Assembly (NCBI RefSeq): GCF_009914755.1
Contig: NC_060926.1
Strand: one strand, 5' to 3'
DNA length: 64,000 nucleotides
Source of the DNA: the human T2T-CHM13v2.0 reference genome, Homo sapiens
Shown: piece by piece, positions 17,090-22,168 of the stretch
Numbering within the stretch: position 1 is the stretch's first letter
How the letters are laid out: each line of letters starts with the position of its first letter
Notes under the pieces: generated by a model
What the model saw: only the letters and a program-made list of their open reading frames with translations
Told to the model about the DNA's origin: nothing
Database searches by the model: none
Position numbers and translations under genes: made by a program

Positions 17090-17159
17090 GAATTCCCACT
17101 TCACGTCCTCTGCTCAATCTTTCCCTATTTCATCAATAAATTGCCCTAACTCAGTTATA
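17090..17159 (-). pseudogene. Dynein pseudogene exon 5' part
   Basis: Splices in phase with the previous exon (AG+T = Ser). SITELGQFIDEIGKD* resembles SLNELQEFIKETDSGL. Confidence 0.75.
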
Positions 17160-17496
17160 CTAACATATAATATGAGAAAATGCCAACAGTTAATTAGGGA
17201 TGAGCCTGTGAAAACTTGGGGGAAGCTACATGTTTCAATTATATTAATGAACACGTAAATGCAATCAAATCAAATGGATAAGCATTGTGTCAAGTTTTTG
17301 CAAGAAGAGAATTGCATTTCACATGCATGAAAGCAACTCTCTTGTAACTTACAGAATACGACATTAAAAATAAGCACATAGGAGAACCATTAAAATACTT
17401 ATTATTTGAGTTAAATTAGAATTCTATGAGGATAGTTTCATCAAATGATTTGTGTTATTTTAATTTCCTTTCACAATCAGATTCAAATTACTCTAC

Positions 17497-17659
17497 CTAC
17501 AGGTTACAATTGTTAAGCAGATGCTCCTTAAACATCAAATCTCATTTTTTGTAACATTCATCATGGATTTTTAAAAGTATCAAGTTGAAGCTAGCCACTA
17601 AATATCTTCTGATTTTTAAAGTTATCAATTCCTTCACATAATATTTCATAGATGTTGAT
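17497..17659 (-). pseudogene. Dynein pseudogene exon (163 nt)
   Basis: Polypyrimidine tract plus AG; INIYEILCEGIDNFKNQKIFSG*LQLD resembles IDSYETLYEEVCRLEPIKVFDGWMKID (W to TAG). Then MFKEHLL and an AG|GTAGAG donor. Confidence 0.9.
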
Positions 17660-17790
17660 CTTAAAGGAAAAGGGGAAAAAAAGGAAAGATCTCTCAGAGG
17701 CAAGAGCTTTATATCTCAAAATATTTTATGATTTAACAGCTGTCCTGGGAGTTGAAAAAGATGATGCTAGACTCAGCTAAAATTCAATAC

Positions 17791-18047
17791 GTGTTCTGTA
17801 AAGTGTGCTAACTGCAGTGTGGAGTTCTGACACTCATAGTCCACATGCAATTCTAGTTTTTCAGCACTAAGAAATCACTCATGGAGAAGGAACTGCTTCG
17901 TGAATTCAATTTTATCATCCATCCATAAGTAGCTGTATTTCTTCAAGTAGCTTTGATACTTGTGAGCATTAATGGTGACTGATTGCACCCTGCTCGGGAT
18001 TTCCTGGTGCATTTCCTCTGGCACATCCATCTGAGCCACGTTCTTTC
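17791..18047 (-). pseudogene. Dynein pseudogene exon (best-preserved, 257 nt)
   Basis: EEMHQEIPSRVQ...YSYLWMDDKIEFTKQFLLHE*FLSAEKLELH...LAHFTEH resembles AEVRQEIMNRVV...[31 protein letters not shown]...LEQFKEQ. TAG acceptor, GTATTG donor. Confidence 0.92.
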
Positions 18048-18987
18048 CTAATAGAAAAATAAAATGGAAAAACATAAGTGGAGCCAATGATTTTTCTTTT
18101 AAAACCATGAAGAATTAGAGGTAGACTACTTCAAGCTAGACTACCGCCATCCAAAATCCAACCAGTACCCCATTAAGTTTGAGAGTTTATTTTATACAAG
18201 AGTTCTCAACGTGTTGTATGTTAACTAAGATTTGTAAAGATAATCACACTCTAAACACAATAGAGGATCTTGTTATTTAAGGGAATATATTGTGAATCAC
18301 TTGGTAAAGTAGATAATTCTTTTGGAAAGTGAAAAATCACCAACTTACTTTATCCTTCACAGACTATGTTGGTTTTCTTAAGACCAGAAAAATAAGCAAC
18401 TGAATCTCTTATAAGTAGAAAGTGGATTTTCTCACCATGAACATTCATGAACCAGCAGAATTAGACATCAACCAGTGATCAATAGAAAAGGTGAAGGTGA
18501 AGATTTCCCTCTGACAGCATCATCTCCTTACCACCTAAGGAGCTCAAGGAAGGCAGAAGAACCTCATTGCCACTGTTTCCAAAGACCTCTCTGATGTCTT
18601 TACTGTAAGCAACTCTGCCTTCAAGCAGCCAGGAGACTGATTTTACGAGGCAGATGAAGCCAAATGATAGGTGATTGCGTATGGGTGTGTTGGCCATGGG
18701 ATCTTTGCCTTATAGTTCCTACTTCTTCTCTTGGCTAGATACATACCAAACCAACCAATGCCTATGGTCAATTTGTGTACTTTGGGTCTCCATTTTCTTG
18801 TTTGGTTCAACATTACGTCATCTTTATAAAATAAATTGAGAGAAAAAATTTATAAGAAAGACTTAAGTATGTTCCAAGAAAATATGCCATTTACCCTAGA
18901 GGTTGAAATATAATCAATTATTCAAAACTTGCATGCTATATATACAAGACACTGCCAGACTCTGGAGATTTAAAAAAAAAAAAATAA

Positions 18988-19391
18988 GACCAGGTGTGGT
19001 GGCTCACACCTGTAATTCCAACAGTTTGGGATCCTGATGTGGGAGGATTGCTTGAGTCTGGGCAACACGGTGAGACCTCGTCCCCACGAAAAATAAAAAA
19101 ATTGGCCGGGCGTGGTGGCTCACTCCTGTAATCCCAGCACTTTGGAAGGCTGAGGCAGATGGATCGCTTGAGCACAAGGAGTTCAAGACCAGCCTGGGAA
19201 ACATGGCAAAACCCCATCTCTACTAAAAATACAAAAACTAGCAGGGCGTGGTGGGGTGTGCCTGTAGTTCCAGCTGCTTGGGAGGCTGAGGTGGGAGGAT
19301 CACTTGAGCCTGGGAAGTGAAGGCTACAGTGAGCCAAGATTGCACCACTGTACTGCAGCCCTGGTGACAGAGTAAGACTGTCTCAAAAAAA
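18988..19391 (+). mobile_element. Alu monomer fragment followed by a full AluJ-like copy
   Basis: Two consecutive Alu 5' starts (~18988 and ~19104). Confidence 0.85.
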
Positions 19392-19610
19392 AGAAAGAAA
19401 GAGAGAAAGAGTGAGAAAGAGAGAATGAAAGAAAAGAGAGAAAAAGAAAGAGAGAAAGAGAGAAAGGAAGAAAGGAAGAAAAGAAAGAAGAAAGAAAGAA
19501 AGAAAGAAAGAAGAAAGAAAGAAAGAAAGAAAGAAAGAAAGAAGAAAGAAAGAAAGAAAGAAAGAAAGAAAGAAAGAAAGAAAGAAAGAAAGAAAGAGAG
19601 AGAGAAAGAG
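19392..19610 (+). repeat. (GAAA)n / GA-rich microsatellite grown from the Alu tail
   Basis: Direct reading. Confidence 0.97.
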
Positions 19611-20069
19611 AGTTCCTGTTCCCCCATTCTGTGTTTTTCAAACATTTACTAATTTTTCAAAGTTCAGTGTAAAAGTCACCTCCTTAGTTGGACCTCAACA
19701 GCACCCTTCTTATTGTGATGATTGTGATGTGATGTGGCAGAAATGGGAAAGGGCTGGGATCCAGAAGGGAAGGGTTATAGTCTTGGGGTTCACTTCTTAC
19801 TAGCATGACCCTAAGCGAATGGCCTCAACTTTCTGAGTCCTTTTCCTCTTCTATAAAATGGATTTAACCATCATTATTTCACAGGACCATTGTGAAGACA
19901 AAGTGAGATGAAGAATGAAAAACTATCCCTGGTACAGAAAATGTGAAATAAATATTTGTTCCACCTATTCTATAGCCCTTCATTGTTCTACTCACTCATA
20001 ACTGTGAACTCCAGAAGAGCAGGAGCCACACTGTGTTCATCTTTATAGTCTGCACCTAATACTTAGGAG

Positions 20070-21345
20070 GTGTTTCAGTTAAAATTAGGTAAAGCTGCAT
20101 TTGGCCAAAAACAAACTAACTAAGGAGACCTTAAATCCACAGTTTTTATCTCTCCCATAAAAATCTAGGGACTACTAAGAATCCAGGGCTGCTCAGACAG
20201 TTCCACAGATGAGTCAGGATCCCATACTCCTTCCAGCTTTATCGCCTGCCACCGTAAGGATGTGGCTCTCGTTAGCATTATCTAAGACGGCAGATGGGGC
20301 TCTAGGCAACATATCTGGATTCCAGGTAGTACAAAGAAGGAGAAGGGCAGGTCTCTCCCTGGAAAGACATTTCTGGAAGTTGTGCAACCACTTCTGCTTA
20401 CATACCTTTGGCCGAAACTTGGTTGTATGGCTCCATCCAGCTGCATGGGAGGCTGGAAAGTGTAGTCTTCAGTCTGTGCCTCTGTATATCCAATTAATAT
20501 TCAAAGTCCTGTTACTGAAGAAGAAGACAGAATTTGATGCTGCAGGGACCATGAATGGTATCTGCCCTATTACACACATGACTATGCTTTGGGAAGTTGG
20601 TTCTGGCAGGGATGTGGAGAAGGAATCAAGAGGCAAAAGCTGAAAGCCAGGAGGAGAGTTGGGACACTCCAGTAACACTGACAAACATAGGCTAGAGGAA
20701 GAGAGGAGCTCTTCCTCTCATTGAATGAGTACTGCATGCCAGACCCCGTGGGGTGCACATTACCCACACCGGCTCATTTGTCACTTCAACCTCTCAAAGC
20801 ACACTGGAGTTCAGATTTTAGCAGAATATTTATTCCAACTTGGGATTGTTAGGTGACTTAAAATGGCCATCATTATATTTCACGATATTGTGGATTGGAA
20901 ATATGGGCTGGGCTCAGCTGGGTGAGTCTTCTCTCCATATAGTGATGGTGTTCATCTATTGTGGGCTCACCTGGAGGATTCCAGGAGGCCTCACTGACGT
21001 GTCTGGCACCTTGGCAGGGCTGGCTAGGAGCCTGGGCTCAGCTGGGACTGTTGACCAGATTGCCTGCCCGTGGCCTCGCCAATGTGGTGGGCACAGAAGT
21101 CGGACTTCTTATATGGCAGCTCAAAGCTCCCAGAGAGAGCATCCTGAGAGACAGGAAGTTGGAAAGCTCAAGTTGTTTGTTTCTTGGAGGTCTGGGCCTC
21201 AAAACTGGTACAGCAACACTTCTGCCATATTCTATTGCTCAAAGCAGTCCCAAAGGCTGCCCAGATTCAAGGATGGGGGCAAAGACCCCGCTTCTCAATG
21301 GAAGGTAGGTACAAGTATTTGCAGCCATCTTGAATTCTCCACAGG
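20070..21345. mobile_element. Two old MLT1-type MaLR LTR fragments (~20070-20560 and ~20850-21345)
   Basis: Typical MLT1 motifs (gggctgggctcagctggg, cttcttatatggcagctca, cttctgccatattctattg). Confidence 0.55.
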
Positions 21346-21837
21346 TGACTTGCACTTAATCAGTATCCAGTAAGTGTTTGTTGAATGATTCACAGGTTTG
21401 GTTCAGTTCTAGATCCTGAAAAATAACATAAATGAGAAACACATCAAGTGTCTAGGAGTTTCTAGAACTTAACTCCTTTCTTTTGAAAAGGAGTTCAAAA
21501 TACAGATTTAGGACACAGGATCTGACTGTACATTAGCAAAATAAAAGTGGAGTTTACTCCAAAACATGAAGGAAGAAAGTGAACGGCTATTCTTCTCCAT
21601 TTCCTATACTGTAGCAACAGTTTGAATAGGTTGATTGCTTTTTGGTATTACCTGGGAATTTCTTCAAGATCCAAGCTGATTACTCCCTTCTGTCCTAGAG
21701 ACAGGAAAACAGCCAAGGAAGAGTGAGTTACTGCCTAAATATAAGCTTCCTTGGCCAGTCTTGGGTGAAGGAGGTAAAAAGGCAGCAGCTGGAAAATGCC
21801 CCAGGGAGAGTCTCATTTTTTGAAAGAAAAGCAGTAC

Positions 21838-22168
21838 CTGACAGGTGTCTTTTCCAAGGCGCCTAGCGACTCCCTTTACAAATGAGGCAGCGCTGAAGTC
21901 TTGATGAGACGTTCTCTCCTGCTAGTGACATTTTTATTGACAGCATGGCTCTAACAAGTTTGGAAAGTCATCTCATTGTCATTCAGGACGAGTGGGGCCC
22001 CAAAGAAAGGGATGGAGTTAGAGCTGGTCTTGAAGTTTTCCATCAGATGCTGGCTCTAACTGATACTGATATGAACACTTGAGCATCCTGGGCAACCCAC
22101 ATAAAACCAAATAATTGCAGTGACAACTCCCATTCATCAAAATGAGATGCGAGTAAGTTCTGCTTGTC
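21838..22168 (-). pseudogene. Dynein pseudogene exon (331 nt)
   Basis: CAG acceptor and CAG|GTACTG donor. QHLMENFKTSSNSIPFFGAPLVLNDNEMTFQTC* resembles [54 protein letters not shown] resembles [20 protein letters not shown]. Confidence 0.85.

What the first reader, a model, noticed from the sequence alone, without database searches (positions are those of the whole stretch)
17090..22168. Core evidence block: four consecutive exons with preserved splice sites
Exons 21838-22168, 17791-18047, 17497-17659 and 17159 onward join to give ...PFFGAPLVL...KDTCQ | ...YSYLWMDDKIEFTKQFLL...FTEH | INIYEIL...MFKEHLL...S | ITELGQFI. This matches a continuous DNAH11/9 tail segment, with introns where I recall DNAH11 having them. 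It indicates a genomic, not retroposed, origin.
Basis: partly seen in the sequence, partly recalled or inferred. Interest (0 to 1): 0.75.

Follow-up and report, generated by a model that had tools for sequence, protein, structure and literature searches.

The report
Dead fourth outer-arm dynein gene
These are decayed exons of a large cilia-motor (dynein heavy chain) gene that fish, frogs and lizards still have but the human lineage lost, still lying in its ancestral place between SP3 and CDCA7.

Summary
The four minus-strand exons (21838-22168, 17791-18047, 17497-17659, from 17159) carry the quoted peptides. Each keeps an AG acceptor, and the three with a stated 3' end keep a GT donor. Their three introns match human DNAH11 in position and phase.

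The interpretation needs one correction. This is not a DNAH11 or DNAH9 copy. It is the in-situ (unitary, unprocessed) pseudogene of a fourth vertebrate outer-arm dynein beta heavy chain. That is the clade labelled 'dnah9l' or 'DNAH11-like' in fishes, amphibians, coelacanth, lungfish and squamates.

- **Identity:** 234 placed relic residues are 59% identical to an unnamed intact 991-aa tail protein (P0003), 47-51% to lizards, and 30-36% to true DNAH11.
- **Trees:** the relic falls inside that clade (100/100), which is sister to DNAH11.
- **Decay:** every exon has stops or frameshifts.
- **Extent:** further relics, including DHC_N1 and AAA1 pieces, spread the dead gene over at least 176 kb (chr2:174,192,249-174,368,080).
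- **Synteny:** CDCA7 / relic / SP3 on chr2 mirrors SP4 / DNAH11 / CDCA7L on chr7.
- **Age:** a 2-nt frameshift that bat and titi-monkey gene models appear to share suggests a loss before those lineages split.

RefSeq annotates only a lncRNA here, and I found no paper describing the locus. Interest is moderate.

The parts
25317..25492 (-). Decayed tail exon (P0003 residues 520-578)
   Evidence: Frameshift-aware alignment: 20/58 identical, 2 frameshifts. HMM hit at 25323-25355, 3.4 bits, colinear. tblastn E 0.13. Weak taken alone.
24117..24218 (-). Decayed tail exon (P0003 residues 577-610)
   Evidence: tblastn E 1.7e-5, 21/34 identical, 1 in-frame stop. HMM hits.
23175..23288 (-). Possible decayed tail exon (P0003 residues 633-670), weak
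   Evidence: HMM hit at 23172-23210, 6.0 bits, colinear. Alignment 12/37 identical, 1 stop.
21838..22168 (-). Exon A of the finding (331 nt; P0003 about 724-833)
   Evidence: AG acceptor and CAG|gt donor, phase 0. The part 21838-22046 aligns 31/68 identical with 1 frameshift and 1 stop. Like DNAH11 it is one exon here, whereas DNAH17 splits this stretch with an extra intron.
17791..18047 (-). Exon B of the finding (257 nt; P0003 834-922), the best-kept relic
   Evidence: 56/84 identical to P0003. HMM score 105.7 bits. PDB hit to DNAH17 residues 964-1008, E 2e-4. One TGA stop. The homologous DNAH11 exon is 255 nt, so this one has 2 extra nt after its first codon.
17660..17790 (-). Short intron between exons B and C (131 nt, gt...ag, phase 0)
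   Evidence: Same position as the 79-nt GC-AG intron of human DNAH11 and as an intron of about 2 kb in DNAH17. Absent in DNAH9. P0003 carries a 23-aa insertion exactly here, absent from all 14 other clade members aligned, which reads as a retained 69-nt intron.
17497..17659 (-). Exon C of the finding (163 nt; P0003 942-991)
   Evidence: 27/47 identical, 1-2 frameshifts, 2 stops. AG acceptor. Donor ...T AG|gt with the phase-2 split Ser codon, as in DNAH11 and DNAH9.
17099..17159 (-). Start of exon D of the finding (ITELGQFIDEIGKD*...)
   Evidence: AG acceptor, and the first T completes the AG|T codon. 8/20 identical to Phrynosoma residues 800-819, 1 stop. Weak alone; supported by its position and phase.
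17847..18047 (-). Last exon of predicted lncRNA LOC105373745, overlapping exon B
   Evidence: The hub's annotation table gives this exon. Its 5' end (18047) is the acceptor of dynein exon B.

Best explanation
The block is part of a unitary (in-situ, unprocessed) pseudogene of a fourth vertebrate outer-arm dynein beta heavy chain. Databases label this paralogue 'dnah9l' or 'DNAH11-like'. It is the sister of DNAH11, and both clades contain cartilaginous fishes, ray-finned fishes and lobe-finned lineages, so the duplication predates jawed vertebrates. The human copy sits in the ancestral slot between SP3 and CDCA7, which mirrors SP4-DNAH11-CDCA7L on chromosome 7. It no longer encodes a protein. 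Its exons kept their splice sites, intron positions and phases, but they have accumulated stops and frameshifts, and most exons are no longer detectable. Shown: homology, clade membership, gene structure, decay, extent, and the human paralogous synteny. Inferred: that the duplication was one of the early vertebrate genome duplications; that the loss predates the primate-bat split; and that the relic has no present function beyond lending an acceptor site to a predicted lncRNA.
For: Splice sites and peptides are verified. Intron positions and phases are identical to human DNAH11. The exon-B ORF retrieves an intact 991-aa DHC_N1 tail protein, P0003 (75%), and gene models from a titi monkey (89%) and a bat (80%). 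P0003 maps colinearly onto the minus strand from 25.4 to 17.5 kb. P0003's best full-length relatives (43-53%) are 'DNAH11-like/dnah9l' proteins of frogs, a salamander, coelacanth, lungfish, gar, sharks, teleosts and squamates; true DNAH11 scores 36-39%. Relic identities over 234 placed residues: P0003 59%, Phrynosoma 51%, Varanus 47%, frogs 45-46%, DNAH11 clade 30-36%, DNAH9 28%, DNAH17 31%. Trees: relic+P0003 100/99, the clade including the relic 100/100, clade+DNAH11 100/99; the quick tree agrees. Disablements are present in every exon. Further relics lie outside the window. An N-terminal exon at window 85816-86080 is 46/86 identical to P0003, and its ORF scores DHC_N1 40.3 bits. A linker exon lies at -1507..-1427 (21/27). 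AAA1 relics lie at chr2:174198047-174198242 (31/65) and 174192249-174192446 (AAA_6 29.2 bits, above cut-off). Synteny: CDCA7(+) at 173.85 Mb, relic(-), SP3(-) at 174.40 Mb, against SP4(+) at 21.62 Mb, DNAH11(+), CDCA7L(-) at 22.04 Mb. A sturgeon gene model (P0130) fuses an SP3-like protein (96% to the SP3 zinc-finger exon against 89% for SP4) to a tail of this dynein clade.
Against: Only about 8 of the expected dozens of exons are detectable in the window. Nothing was found at 1-17 kb, or at 25.5-64 kb apart from two E=0.41 fragments near 54.5 kb, so the extent rests on scattered relics. P0003 is unnamed and is a gene model with a retained intron, so its intactness is not proof of function. 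The absence of the clade from mammals, birds, turtles and crocodilians rests on word-seeded searches, with 120 of 201 hits listed and 16 hits; this is weak evidence of absence. Synteny in other vertebrates was tested only indirectly, through one fused sturgeon model that its source flags 'UNVERIFIED_CONTAM'. The shared 2-nt frameshift in bat and monkey is read from predicted proteins, not from their DNA. Exon B is better kept between human and bat (69/90) than I would expect for long-dead DNA. This may mean later or independent losses, or constraint of another kind.
Confidence: 0.9

Rival explanations
1. An unprocessed duplicate (segmental-duplication pseudogene) of DNAH11 or DNAH9, copied to chromosome 2 within mammals.
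For: Intron positions and phases equal those of DNAH11. DNAH11, DNAH17 and DNAH9 are among the 8 non-self human matches listed for exon B.
Against: The relic is only 30-31% identical to the rat and dog DNAH11 proteins, 28% to a chimaera DNAH9 and 31% to a bat DNAH17. It is 59% identical to P0003 and 47-51% to lizard members of the other clade. It is nested in that clade with 100/100 support. It lies in the paralogous SP-CDCA7 slot. DNAH9 lacks the B|C intron.
Confidence: 0.02
2. The relic exons, exon B above all, are no longer coding but are kept by selection for another role, as an exon of lncRNA LOC105373745 or as a cis-regulatory element in the SP3-CDCA7 gene desert. This would resemble the 'exonic remnants' described after gene loss in teleosts.
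For: The lncRNA's last exon starts at the dynein exon-B acceptor (hub table). Human against the bat model is 69/90 identical across exon B plus 5/5 residues of read-through into the intron, and human against titi monkey is 73/86. From recalled neutral rates I would expect roughly 50% and 77%. The concept is in print (PMC2831330; I saw only the search listing and the start of the abstract).
Against: Exon B was found because it is the best-kept exon, which is ascertainment bias. The other exons are heavily decayed. The neutral expectations are recalled, not computed. No cross-species DNA, conservation scores or expression data were available. The lncRNA is only a predicted model.
Confidence: 0.2
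3. A still-functional but unannotated human dynein gene or protein-coding exon set.
For: Canonical splice sites are kept. There is a 79-aa open frame over exon B and a 124-aa open frame at the N-terminal exon.
Against: Stops or frameshifts occur in every exon examined. Three stops interrupt the AAA1 relic. Most exons are undetectable.
Confidence: 0.01
4. A processed (retroposed) dynein pseudogene, or chance similarity.
For: None beyond the low similarity of single short pieces such as exon D (8/20).
Against: Introns of about 3.8 kb, 131 nt and 337 nt sit at family-conserved positions with kept gt/ag. HMM hits run 9 on the minus strand against 0 on the plus strand. The whole-genome matches to exon B include the paralogous exons.
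Confidence: 0.01

Closest known systems
Vertebrate 'dnah9l' / 'DNAH11-like' outer-arm dynein beta heavy chain (for example the Latimeria and Lepisosteus 'dnah9l' entries, Xenopus P0013, Varanus P0065; zebrafish dnah9l in PMC6008050)
   Same: Orthologous clade by tree. Highest identities of any named proteins. It neighbours SP3 in humans (hub table) and apparently in sturgeon. The tail and AAA1 domains are recognisable.
   Different: The human copy is dead, with stops, frameshifts and most exons eroded. The eLife paper (passages read) lists dnah9l as one of three zebrafish outer-arm beta genes. As I read its flattened Table 1, the dnah9l row has no human partner. It reports embryonic expression only in the otic vesicle.
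Human DNAH11 (7p15.3)
   Same: Sister paralogue. Identical intron positions and phases across the four exons, and nearly equal exon sizes (255 against 257 nt for exon B). Same gene-neighbourhood pattern of an SP gene upstream and a convergent CDCA7-family gene downstream.
   Different: Only 30-31% identity to the rat and dog DNAH11 proteins over the relic. It forms a separate clade that already includes sharks. DNAH11 is intact and functional.
Human DNAH9 and DNAH17 (solved in PDB 8j07 and 9fqr)
   Same: Same class of outer-arm beta heavy chain. Exon B aligns to DNAH17 residues 964-1008 and DNAH9 residues 988-1031. P0003 aligns to DNAH9 residues 140-1111 and DNAH17 residues 119-1089.
   Different: More distant (28-31%). 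DNAH9 has lost the B|C intron. DNAH17 has an extra intron inside the stretch that is exon A here.
Unitary pseudogenes of the human genome (for example FSIP2LP, as described by HGNC, PMC9825485, passage read)
   Same: Degraded in situ at a conserved genomic position, with functional copies in other species.
   Different: Here the named intact copies are all non-mammalian. RefSeq has no pseudogene annotation at the locus (hub table).

Membership tests
Axonemal outer-arm dynein beta heavy chain (Kollmar class 4-beta) | N-terminal tail domain DHC_N1 (PF08385) | tested here: met
   The human relic ORF at chr2:174367819-174368001 scores 40.3 bits against a cut-off of 28.3. The nearest intact relative, P0003, scores 473 bits. 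The four exons of the finding lie just past the Pfam model and gave no Pfam hit.
Axonemal outer-arm dynein beta heavy chain (Kollmar class 4-beta) | Dynein AAA1 motor module (PF12774, AAA_6) | tested here: met
   The relic at chr2:174192249-174192446 scores 29.2 bits against a cut-off of 25.2. A second relic at 174198047-174198242 is 31/65 identical to lizard AAA1 but has 3 stops. Both lie outside the window.
Axonemal outer-arm dynein beta heavy chain (Kollmar class 4-beta) | Groups with outer-arm beta chains in a tree or search | tested here: met
   The best PDB matches of P0003 are DNAH9 and DNAH17, then Tetrahymena and Chlamydomonas outer-arm beta chains. Trees are rooted on amphioxus and acorn-worm beta chains.
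Axonemal outer-arm dynein beta heavy chain (Kollmar class 4-beta) | Intact reading frame, that is a working gene | tested here: not met
   Stops and/or frameshifts in every exon aligned.
DNAH11 orthologue or recent DNAH11 copy | Falls inside the DNAH11 clade and is closest to mammalian DNAH11 | tested here: not met
   The DNAH11 clade (9 rows) is monophyletic without the relic, 100/99. Identity to DNAH11-clade rows is 30-36%.
dnah9l / 'DNAH11-like' orthologue | Falls inside that clade | tested here: met
   The clade of 12 rows plus the relic has 100/100 support, and the tetrapod subclade including the relic has 100/99.
dnah9l / 'DNAH11-like' orthologue | Conserved position next to SP3 in other vertebrates | tested here: inconclusive
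   Tested only through a fused SP3-like + dynein tail gene model from a sturgeon. No vertebrate genome other than the human one could be searched.
Unprocessed / unitary pseudogene | Ancestral introns retained, disabling mutations present, no intact copy at the locus | tested here: met
   RefSeq lists only a lncRNA here (hub table).
Processed pseudogene | Intronless cDNA-like copy | tested here: not met
   Three introns are retained with gt/ag at conserved positions.

The most novel reading that the evidence does not exclude
After the gene died, at least exon B and its acceptor site were retained under selection. They now serve as the terminal exon of lncRNA LOC105373745 and/or as a cis-regulatory element of the SP3-CDCA7 desert. 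That would make it a mammalian 'exonic remnant' of a gene lost about 100 million years ago or more.
Probability: 0.2. Interest if true: 0.65.

Novelty: new member of a known kind. Interest (0 to 1): 0.5.

Why it matters
Humans are said to have three outer-arm beta dynein heavy chains (DNAH9, DNAH11, DNAH17). Zebrafish are listed with dnah9, dnah9l and dnah11 (PMC6008050, passages read; PMC5100056, passages read). This locus is physical evidence that the human lineage once had the fourth, dnah9l-type gene and lost it in place.

That settles how the fish and human gene sets correspond, adds a dynein to the SP/CDCA7 paralogous blocks, and gives a datable marker of gene loss in mammals. It also explains an unannotated stretch of a gene desert and the origin of one lncRNA splice site.

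I found no paper on it. The searches were 'dynein heavy chain/pseudogene/DNAH11/ohnolog', 'dnah9l', 'unitary pseudogene + dynein', 'LOC105373745' and 'DNAH9/11/17 + whole genome duplication'. Supplements of PMC5100056 were not opened and may list such pseudogenes. GENCODE and Ensembl could not be consulted.

Tried and rejected
- **Default tblastn misses exon B.** Window ORFs against 200 kb of DNAH17 were swamped by Alu hits, and the true exon was missed. It needed one-hit seeding and still gave only E 0.044. I replaced this route with protein-database hits and HMMs.
- **Weak hit at window 1216-1347.** It resembles a late DNAH17 exon (E 0.014). Neither HMM supports it, so I treat it as chance.
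- **Non-colinear hit at 31985-32029.** This is the one non-colinear HMM hit (6.9 bits, model 2127-2141). I treat it as chance.
- **Two fragments at 54487-54557.** Each has E 0.41 and matches P0003 364-397. No HMM supports them, so they are left open.
- **Pfam on the four exons.** It gave nothing relevant, because they lie between DHC_N1 and DHC_N2.
- **Kollmar 2016.** The passages read name no fourth human class-4-beta gene. The apparent 'DHC4D' hit is an artefact of run-together table text.
- **Large fetches.** I used 17 kb of DNAH11 and the 3-kb DNAH9 locus instead.
- **Search with the next part of the lizard protein.** It was not run. The motor domain was probed with a Pfam family instead.
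- **AU test.** Not run, because support values were already maximal.

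
Full report
**The observation**

- All four have an AG acceptor behind a pyrimidine-rich stretch.
- The three with a stated 3' end have a GT donor.
- The exons are not open. Exon A needs three reading frames. Exon B has an in-frame TGA. Exon C changes frame and has stops. Exon D stops after 14 codons.

**Is it more than chance?**

The exon-B ORF, searched in six frames against the whole 3.1-Gb assembly, gave 8 non-self matches at E<=10. Three of them are the homologous exons of the human outer-arm beta dynein genes:
- DNAH17 at chr17:79.43 Mb, 41% identity, E 1e-3, ranked first;
- DNAH11 at chr7:21.74 Mb, 38%, E 5.5e-3, ranked second;
- DNAH9 at chr17:11.58 Mb, 38%, E 4.2, ranked fifth.

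Against solved structures the ORF aligns to DNAH17 residues 964-1008 (E 2e-4) and DNAH9 residues 988-1031 (E 0.27). Roughly equal distance to all three paralogues was the first sign that this is not a copy of any of them.

**The key relative**

A search of the large protein collection with the exon-B ORF returned three proteins:
- a titi-monkey hypothetical protein (89% identity);
- a bat 'uncharacterized protein' (80%);
- P0003, an unnamed 991-aa protein with an intact DHC_N1 tail domain (75%; Pfam 473 bits).

P0003 maps colinearly onto the minus strand of the window:

| P0003 residues | Window coordinates |
|---|---|
| 564-578 (weak, E 0.13) | 25361-25317 |
| 577-610 | 24218-24117 |
| 764-833 | 22046-21838 |
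| 834-922 | 18045-17779 |
| 937-968 | 17680-17579 |

P0003 has a 23-residue insertion exactly at the exon B|C junction. None of the 14 other clade members aligned has it. It is therefore a retained short intron in that gene model, which confirms the intron independently.

**Which dynein?**

P0003's best full-length relatives (43-53% identity) are proteins labelled 'dynein axonemal heavy chain 11-like' or 'dnah9l'. They come from frogs, a salamander, coelacanth, lungfish, gar, bowfin, sharks, a chimaera, many teleosts and a monitor lizard. Shorter models come from two more lizards. True DNAH11 of mammals, frogs and coelacanth scores 36-39%.

I placed 234 translated relic residues on P0003's coordinates and counted identities:

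| Compared with | Identity to the human relic |
|---|---|
| P0003 | 59% |
| Phrynosoma | 51% |
| Varanus | 47% |
| frogs | 45-46% |
| coelacanth dnah9l | 42% |
| DNAH11 clade | 30-36% |
| DNAH9 | 28% |
| DNAH17 | 31% |

Two trees agree on the placement.
- The quick tree used 32 rows and 1350 columns.
- The careful tree used 26 rows and 471 columns, with six rows dropped for speed: one cichlid isoform, the salamander 11-like protein, one amphioxus protein, bowfin, Rhinophrynus and Crotalus.
- In the careful tree the relic pairs with P0003 (100/99), inside a tetrapod subclade (100/99), inside the dnah9l-type clade (100/100). That clade is sister to the DNAH11 clade (100/99).
- Both clades contain cartilaginous fishes, so the duplication predates jawed vertebrates.
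- The relic's end branch (0.57) is about three times P0003's (0.19-0.20), as expected for a dead copy.

**Gene structure**

Human DNAH11's exon borders were set with the rat protein and read at nucleotide level. All three introns coincide in position and phase.

| Intron | This locus | Human DNAH11 | Phase |
|---|---|---|---|
| A\|B | ...CAG\|gt | ...CAG\|gt | 0 |
| B\|C | FTEH\|INIYE, 131 nt | FKEQ\|IDIYE, 79 nt, GC-AG | 0 |
| C\|D | AG\|T split serine codon | AG\|T split serine codon | 2 |

- DNAH11's exon is 255 nt where exon B is 257 nt. The 2 extra nt sit after the first codon (GAA) and shift the frame.
- DNAH17 shares the three introns but has one more inside the stretch that is exon A here.
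- DNAH9 has no B|C intron.
- The structure is thus closest to DNAH11's, which fits the sister relationship. It also excludes retroposition.

**Extent**

A clade HMM gave 5 hits of 2 bits or more on the minus strand and 0 on the plus strand. A tetrapod-only HMM gave 9 against 0, and 8 of the 9 are colinear between 25.36 and 17.5 kb. Nothing was detected at 1-17 kb.

Outside the window, whole-genome searches and small fetches found four more relics:
- an N-terminal exon at window 85816-86080, 46/86 identical to P0003, with 2 frameshifts; its ORF scores DHC_N1 40.3 bits;
- a linker exon at -1507..-1427, 21/27 identical to the lizard protein;
- an AAA1 relic at chr2:174198047-174198242, 31/65 identical, with 3 stops;
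- an AAA1 relic at chr2:174192249-174192446, AAA_6 29.2 bits.

The dead gene therefore spans at least 176 kb.

**Synteny**

In this genome CDCA7's zinc-finger exons lie at chr2:173.85 Mb (+). The relic lies on the minus strand, and SP3's zinc-finger exons lie at 174.40 Mb (-). On chr7, SP4 lies at 21.62 Mb (+), DNAH11 is matched from 21.70 to 21.84 Mb (+), and CDCA7L lies at 22.04 Mb (-).

The two arrangements are mirror images: an SP gene, then a dynein in the same orientation, then a convergent CDCA7-family gene. A sturgeon gene model (P0130) fuses an SP3-like protein to a tail of this dynein clade. This hints that the adjacency is old, but its source flags that record as possibly contaminated.

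**Age of the loss (inference)**

- The bat and titi-monkey models read 'GK(S/N)(V/M)AQMD' across the start of exon B. That reading requires the same 11-nt start, and so the same 2-nt excess, as in human. If so, the frameshift predates the primate-bat split.
- The human TGA in exon B corresponds to arginine in titi monkey and in P0003, and to glutamine in the bat, so it is a later change in the human lineage.
- These readings come from predicted proteins, not DNA.
- Exon B is 69/90 identical between human and the bat model, including 5/5 residues read into the intron. That is higher than I would expect from recalled neutral rates. It leaves room for constraint of another kind, for a slow-evolving region, or simply for the bias of looking at the best-kept exon.

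**Present function**

Most likely there is none as a gene. The one visible afterlife is that the predicted lncRNA LOC105373745 starts its last exon (17847-18047) at the old exon-B acceptor (hub table).

**Literature**

- Kollmar 2016 (PMC5100056, passages read) lists only DNAH11, DNAH17 and DNAH9 as human class-4-beta genes, and mentions fragmented dynein pseudogenes only in fish and birds.
- Yamaguchi et al. 2018 (PMC6008050, passages read) list zebrafish dnah9, dnah9l and dnah11. As I read its flattened Table 1, the dnah9l row has no human partner.
- Five searches found no description of a human relic.

**Verdict**

It is a new, apparently undescribed member of a known kind, a unitary pseudogene of a dynein paralogue, and is of moderate interest.

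Noticed in passing
window 17847-18047 (-): The last exon of the predicted lncRNA LOC105373745 begins at the acceptor site of the dead dynein's exon B. Its other two exons (20406-20514, 20971-21041) lie in the old A|B intron and show no dynein similarity.
   Followed up: partly
L006 (chr17:11575977-11579111), positions 1468-1896: Human DNAH9 encodes the equivalents of exons B and C as one exon (FKVQIDSYE is contiguous). It has therefore lost the short intron that DNAH11, DNAH17 and this locus keep.
   Followed up: yes
chr7:21737094-21737172 (L003): The homologous short intron of human DNAH11 is 79 nt and starts with GC rather than GT (CAG|gcaagg...acag|ATT).
   Followed up: partly
window 31985-32029 (-): This 6.9-bit HMM hit to a motor-domain position (model 2127-2141) is out of order with the other relics. 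It is probably chance.
   Followed up: no
window 54487-54557 (-): Two adjacent short matches to P0003 residues 364-397 in different frames (E 0.41 each). They are in the right order for an upstream exon, but no HMM supports them.
   Followed up: partly
chr13:88565564-88565875 (-), outside the window: The best human match to the SP3-like part of the sturgeon model is an intronless 208-aa open frame on chr13 (81% identity). It looks like a processed SP3 copy.
   Followed up: no
chr8:43952188-43952376 and chr9:87558449-87558731, outside the window: CDCA7-type zinc-finger matches with several stops. They look like CDCA7-family pseudogenes.
   Followed up: no
P0130 (Acipenser sinensis model): This gene model joins an SP3-like transcription factor to the dnah9l-type dynein tail and contains an internal repeated block. 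It is probably a mis-merge of neighbouring genes, and is useful only as a hint of adjacency.
   Followed up: partly
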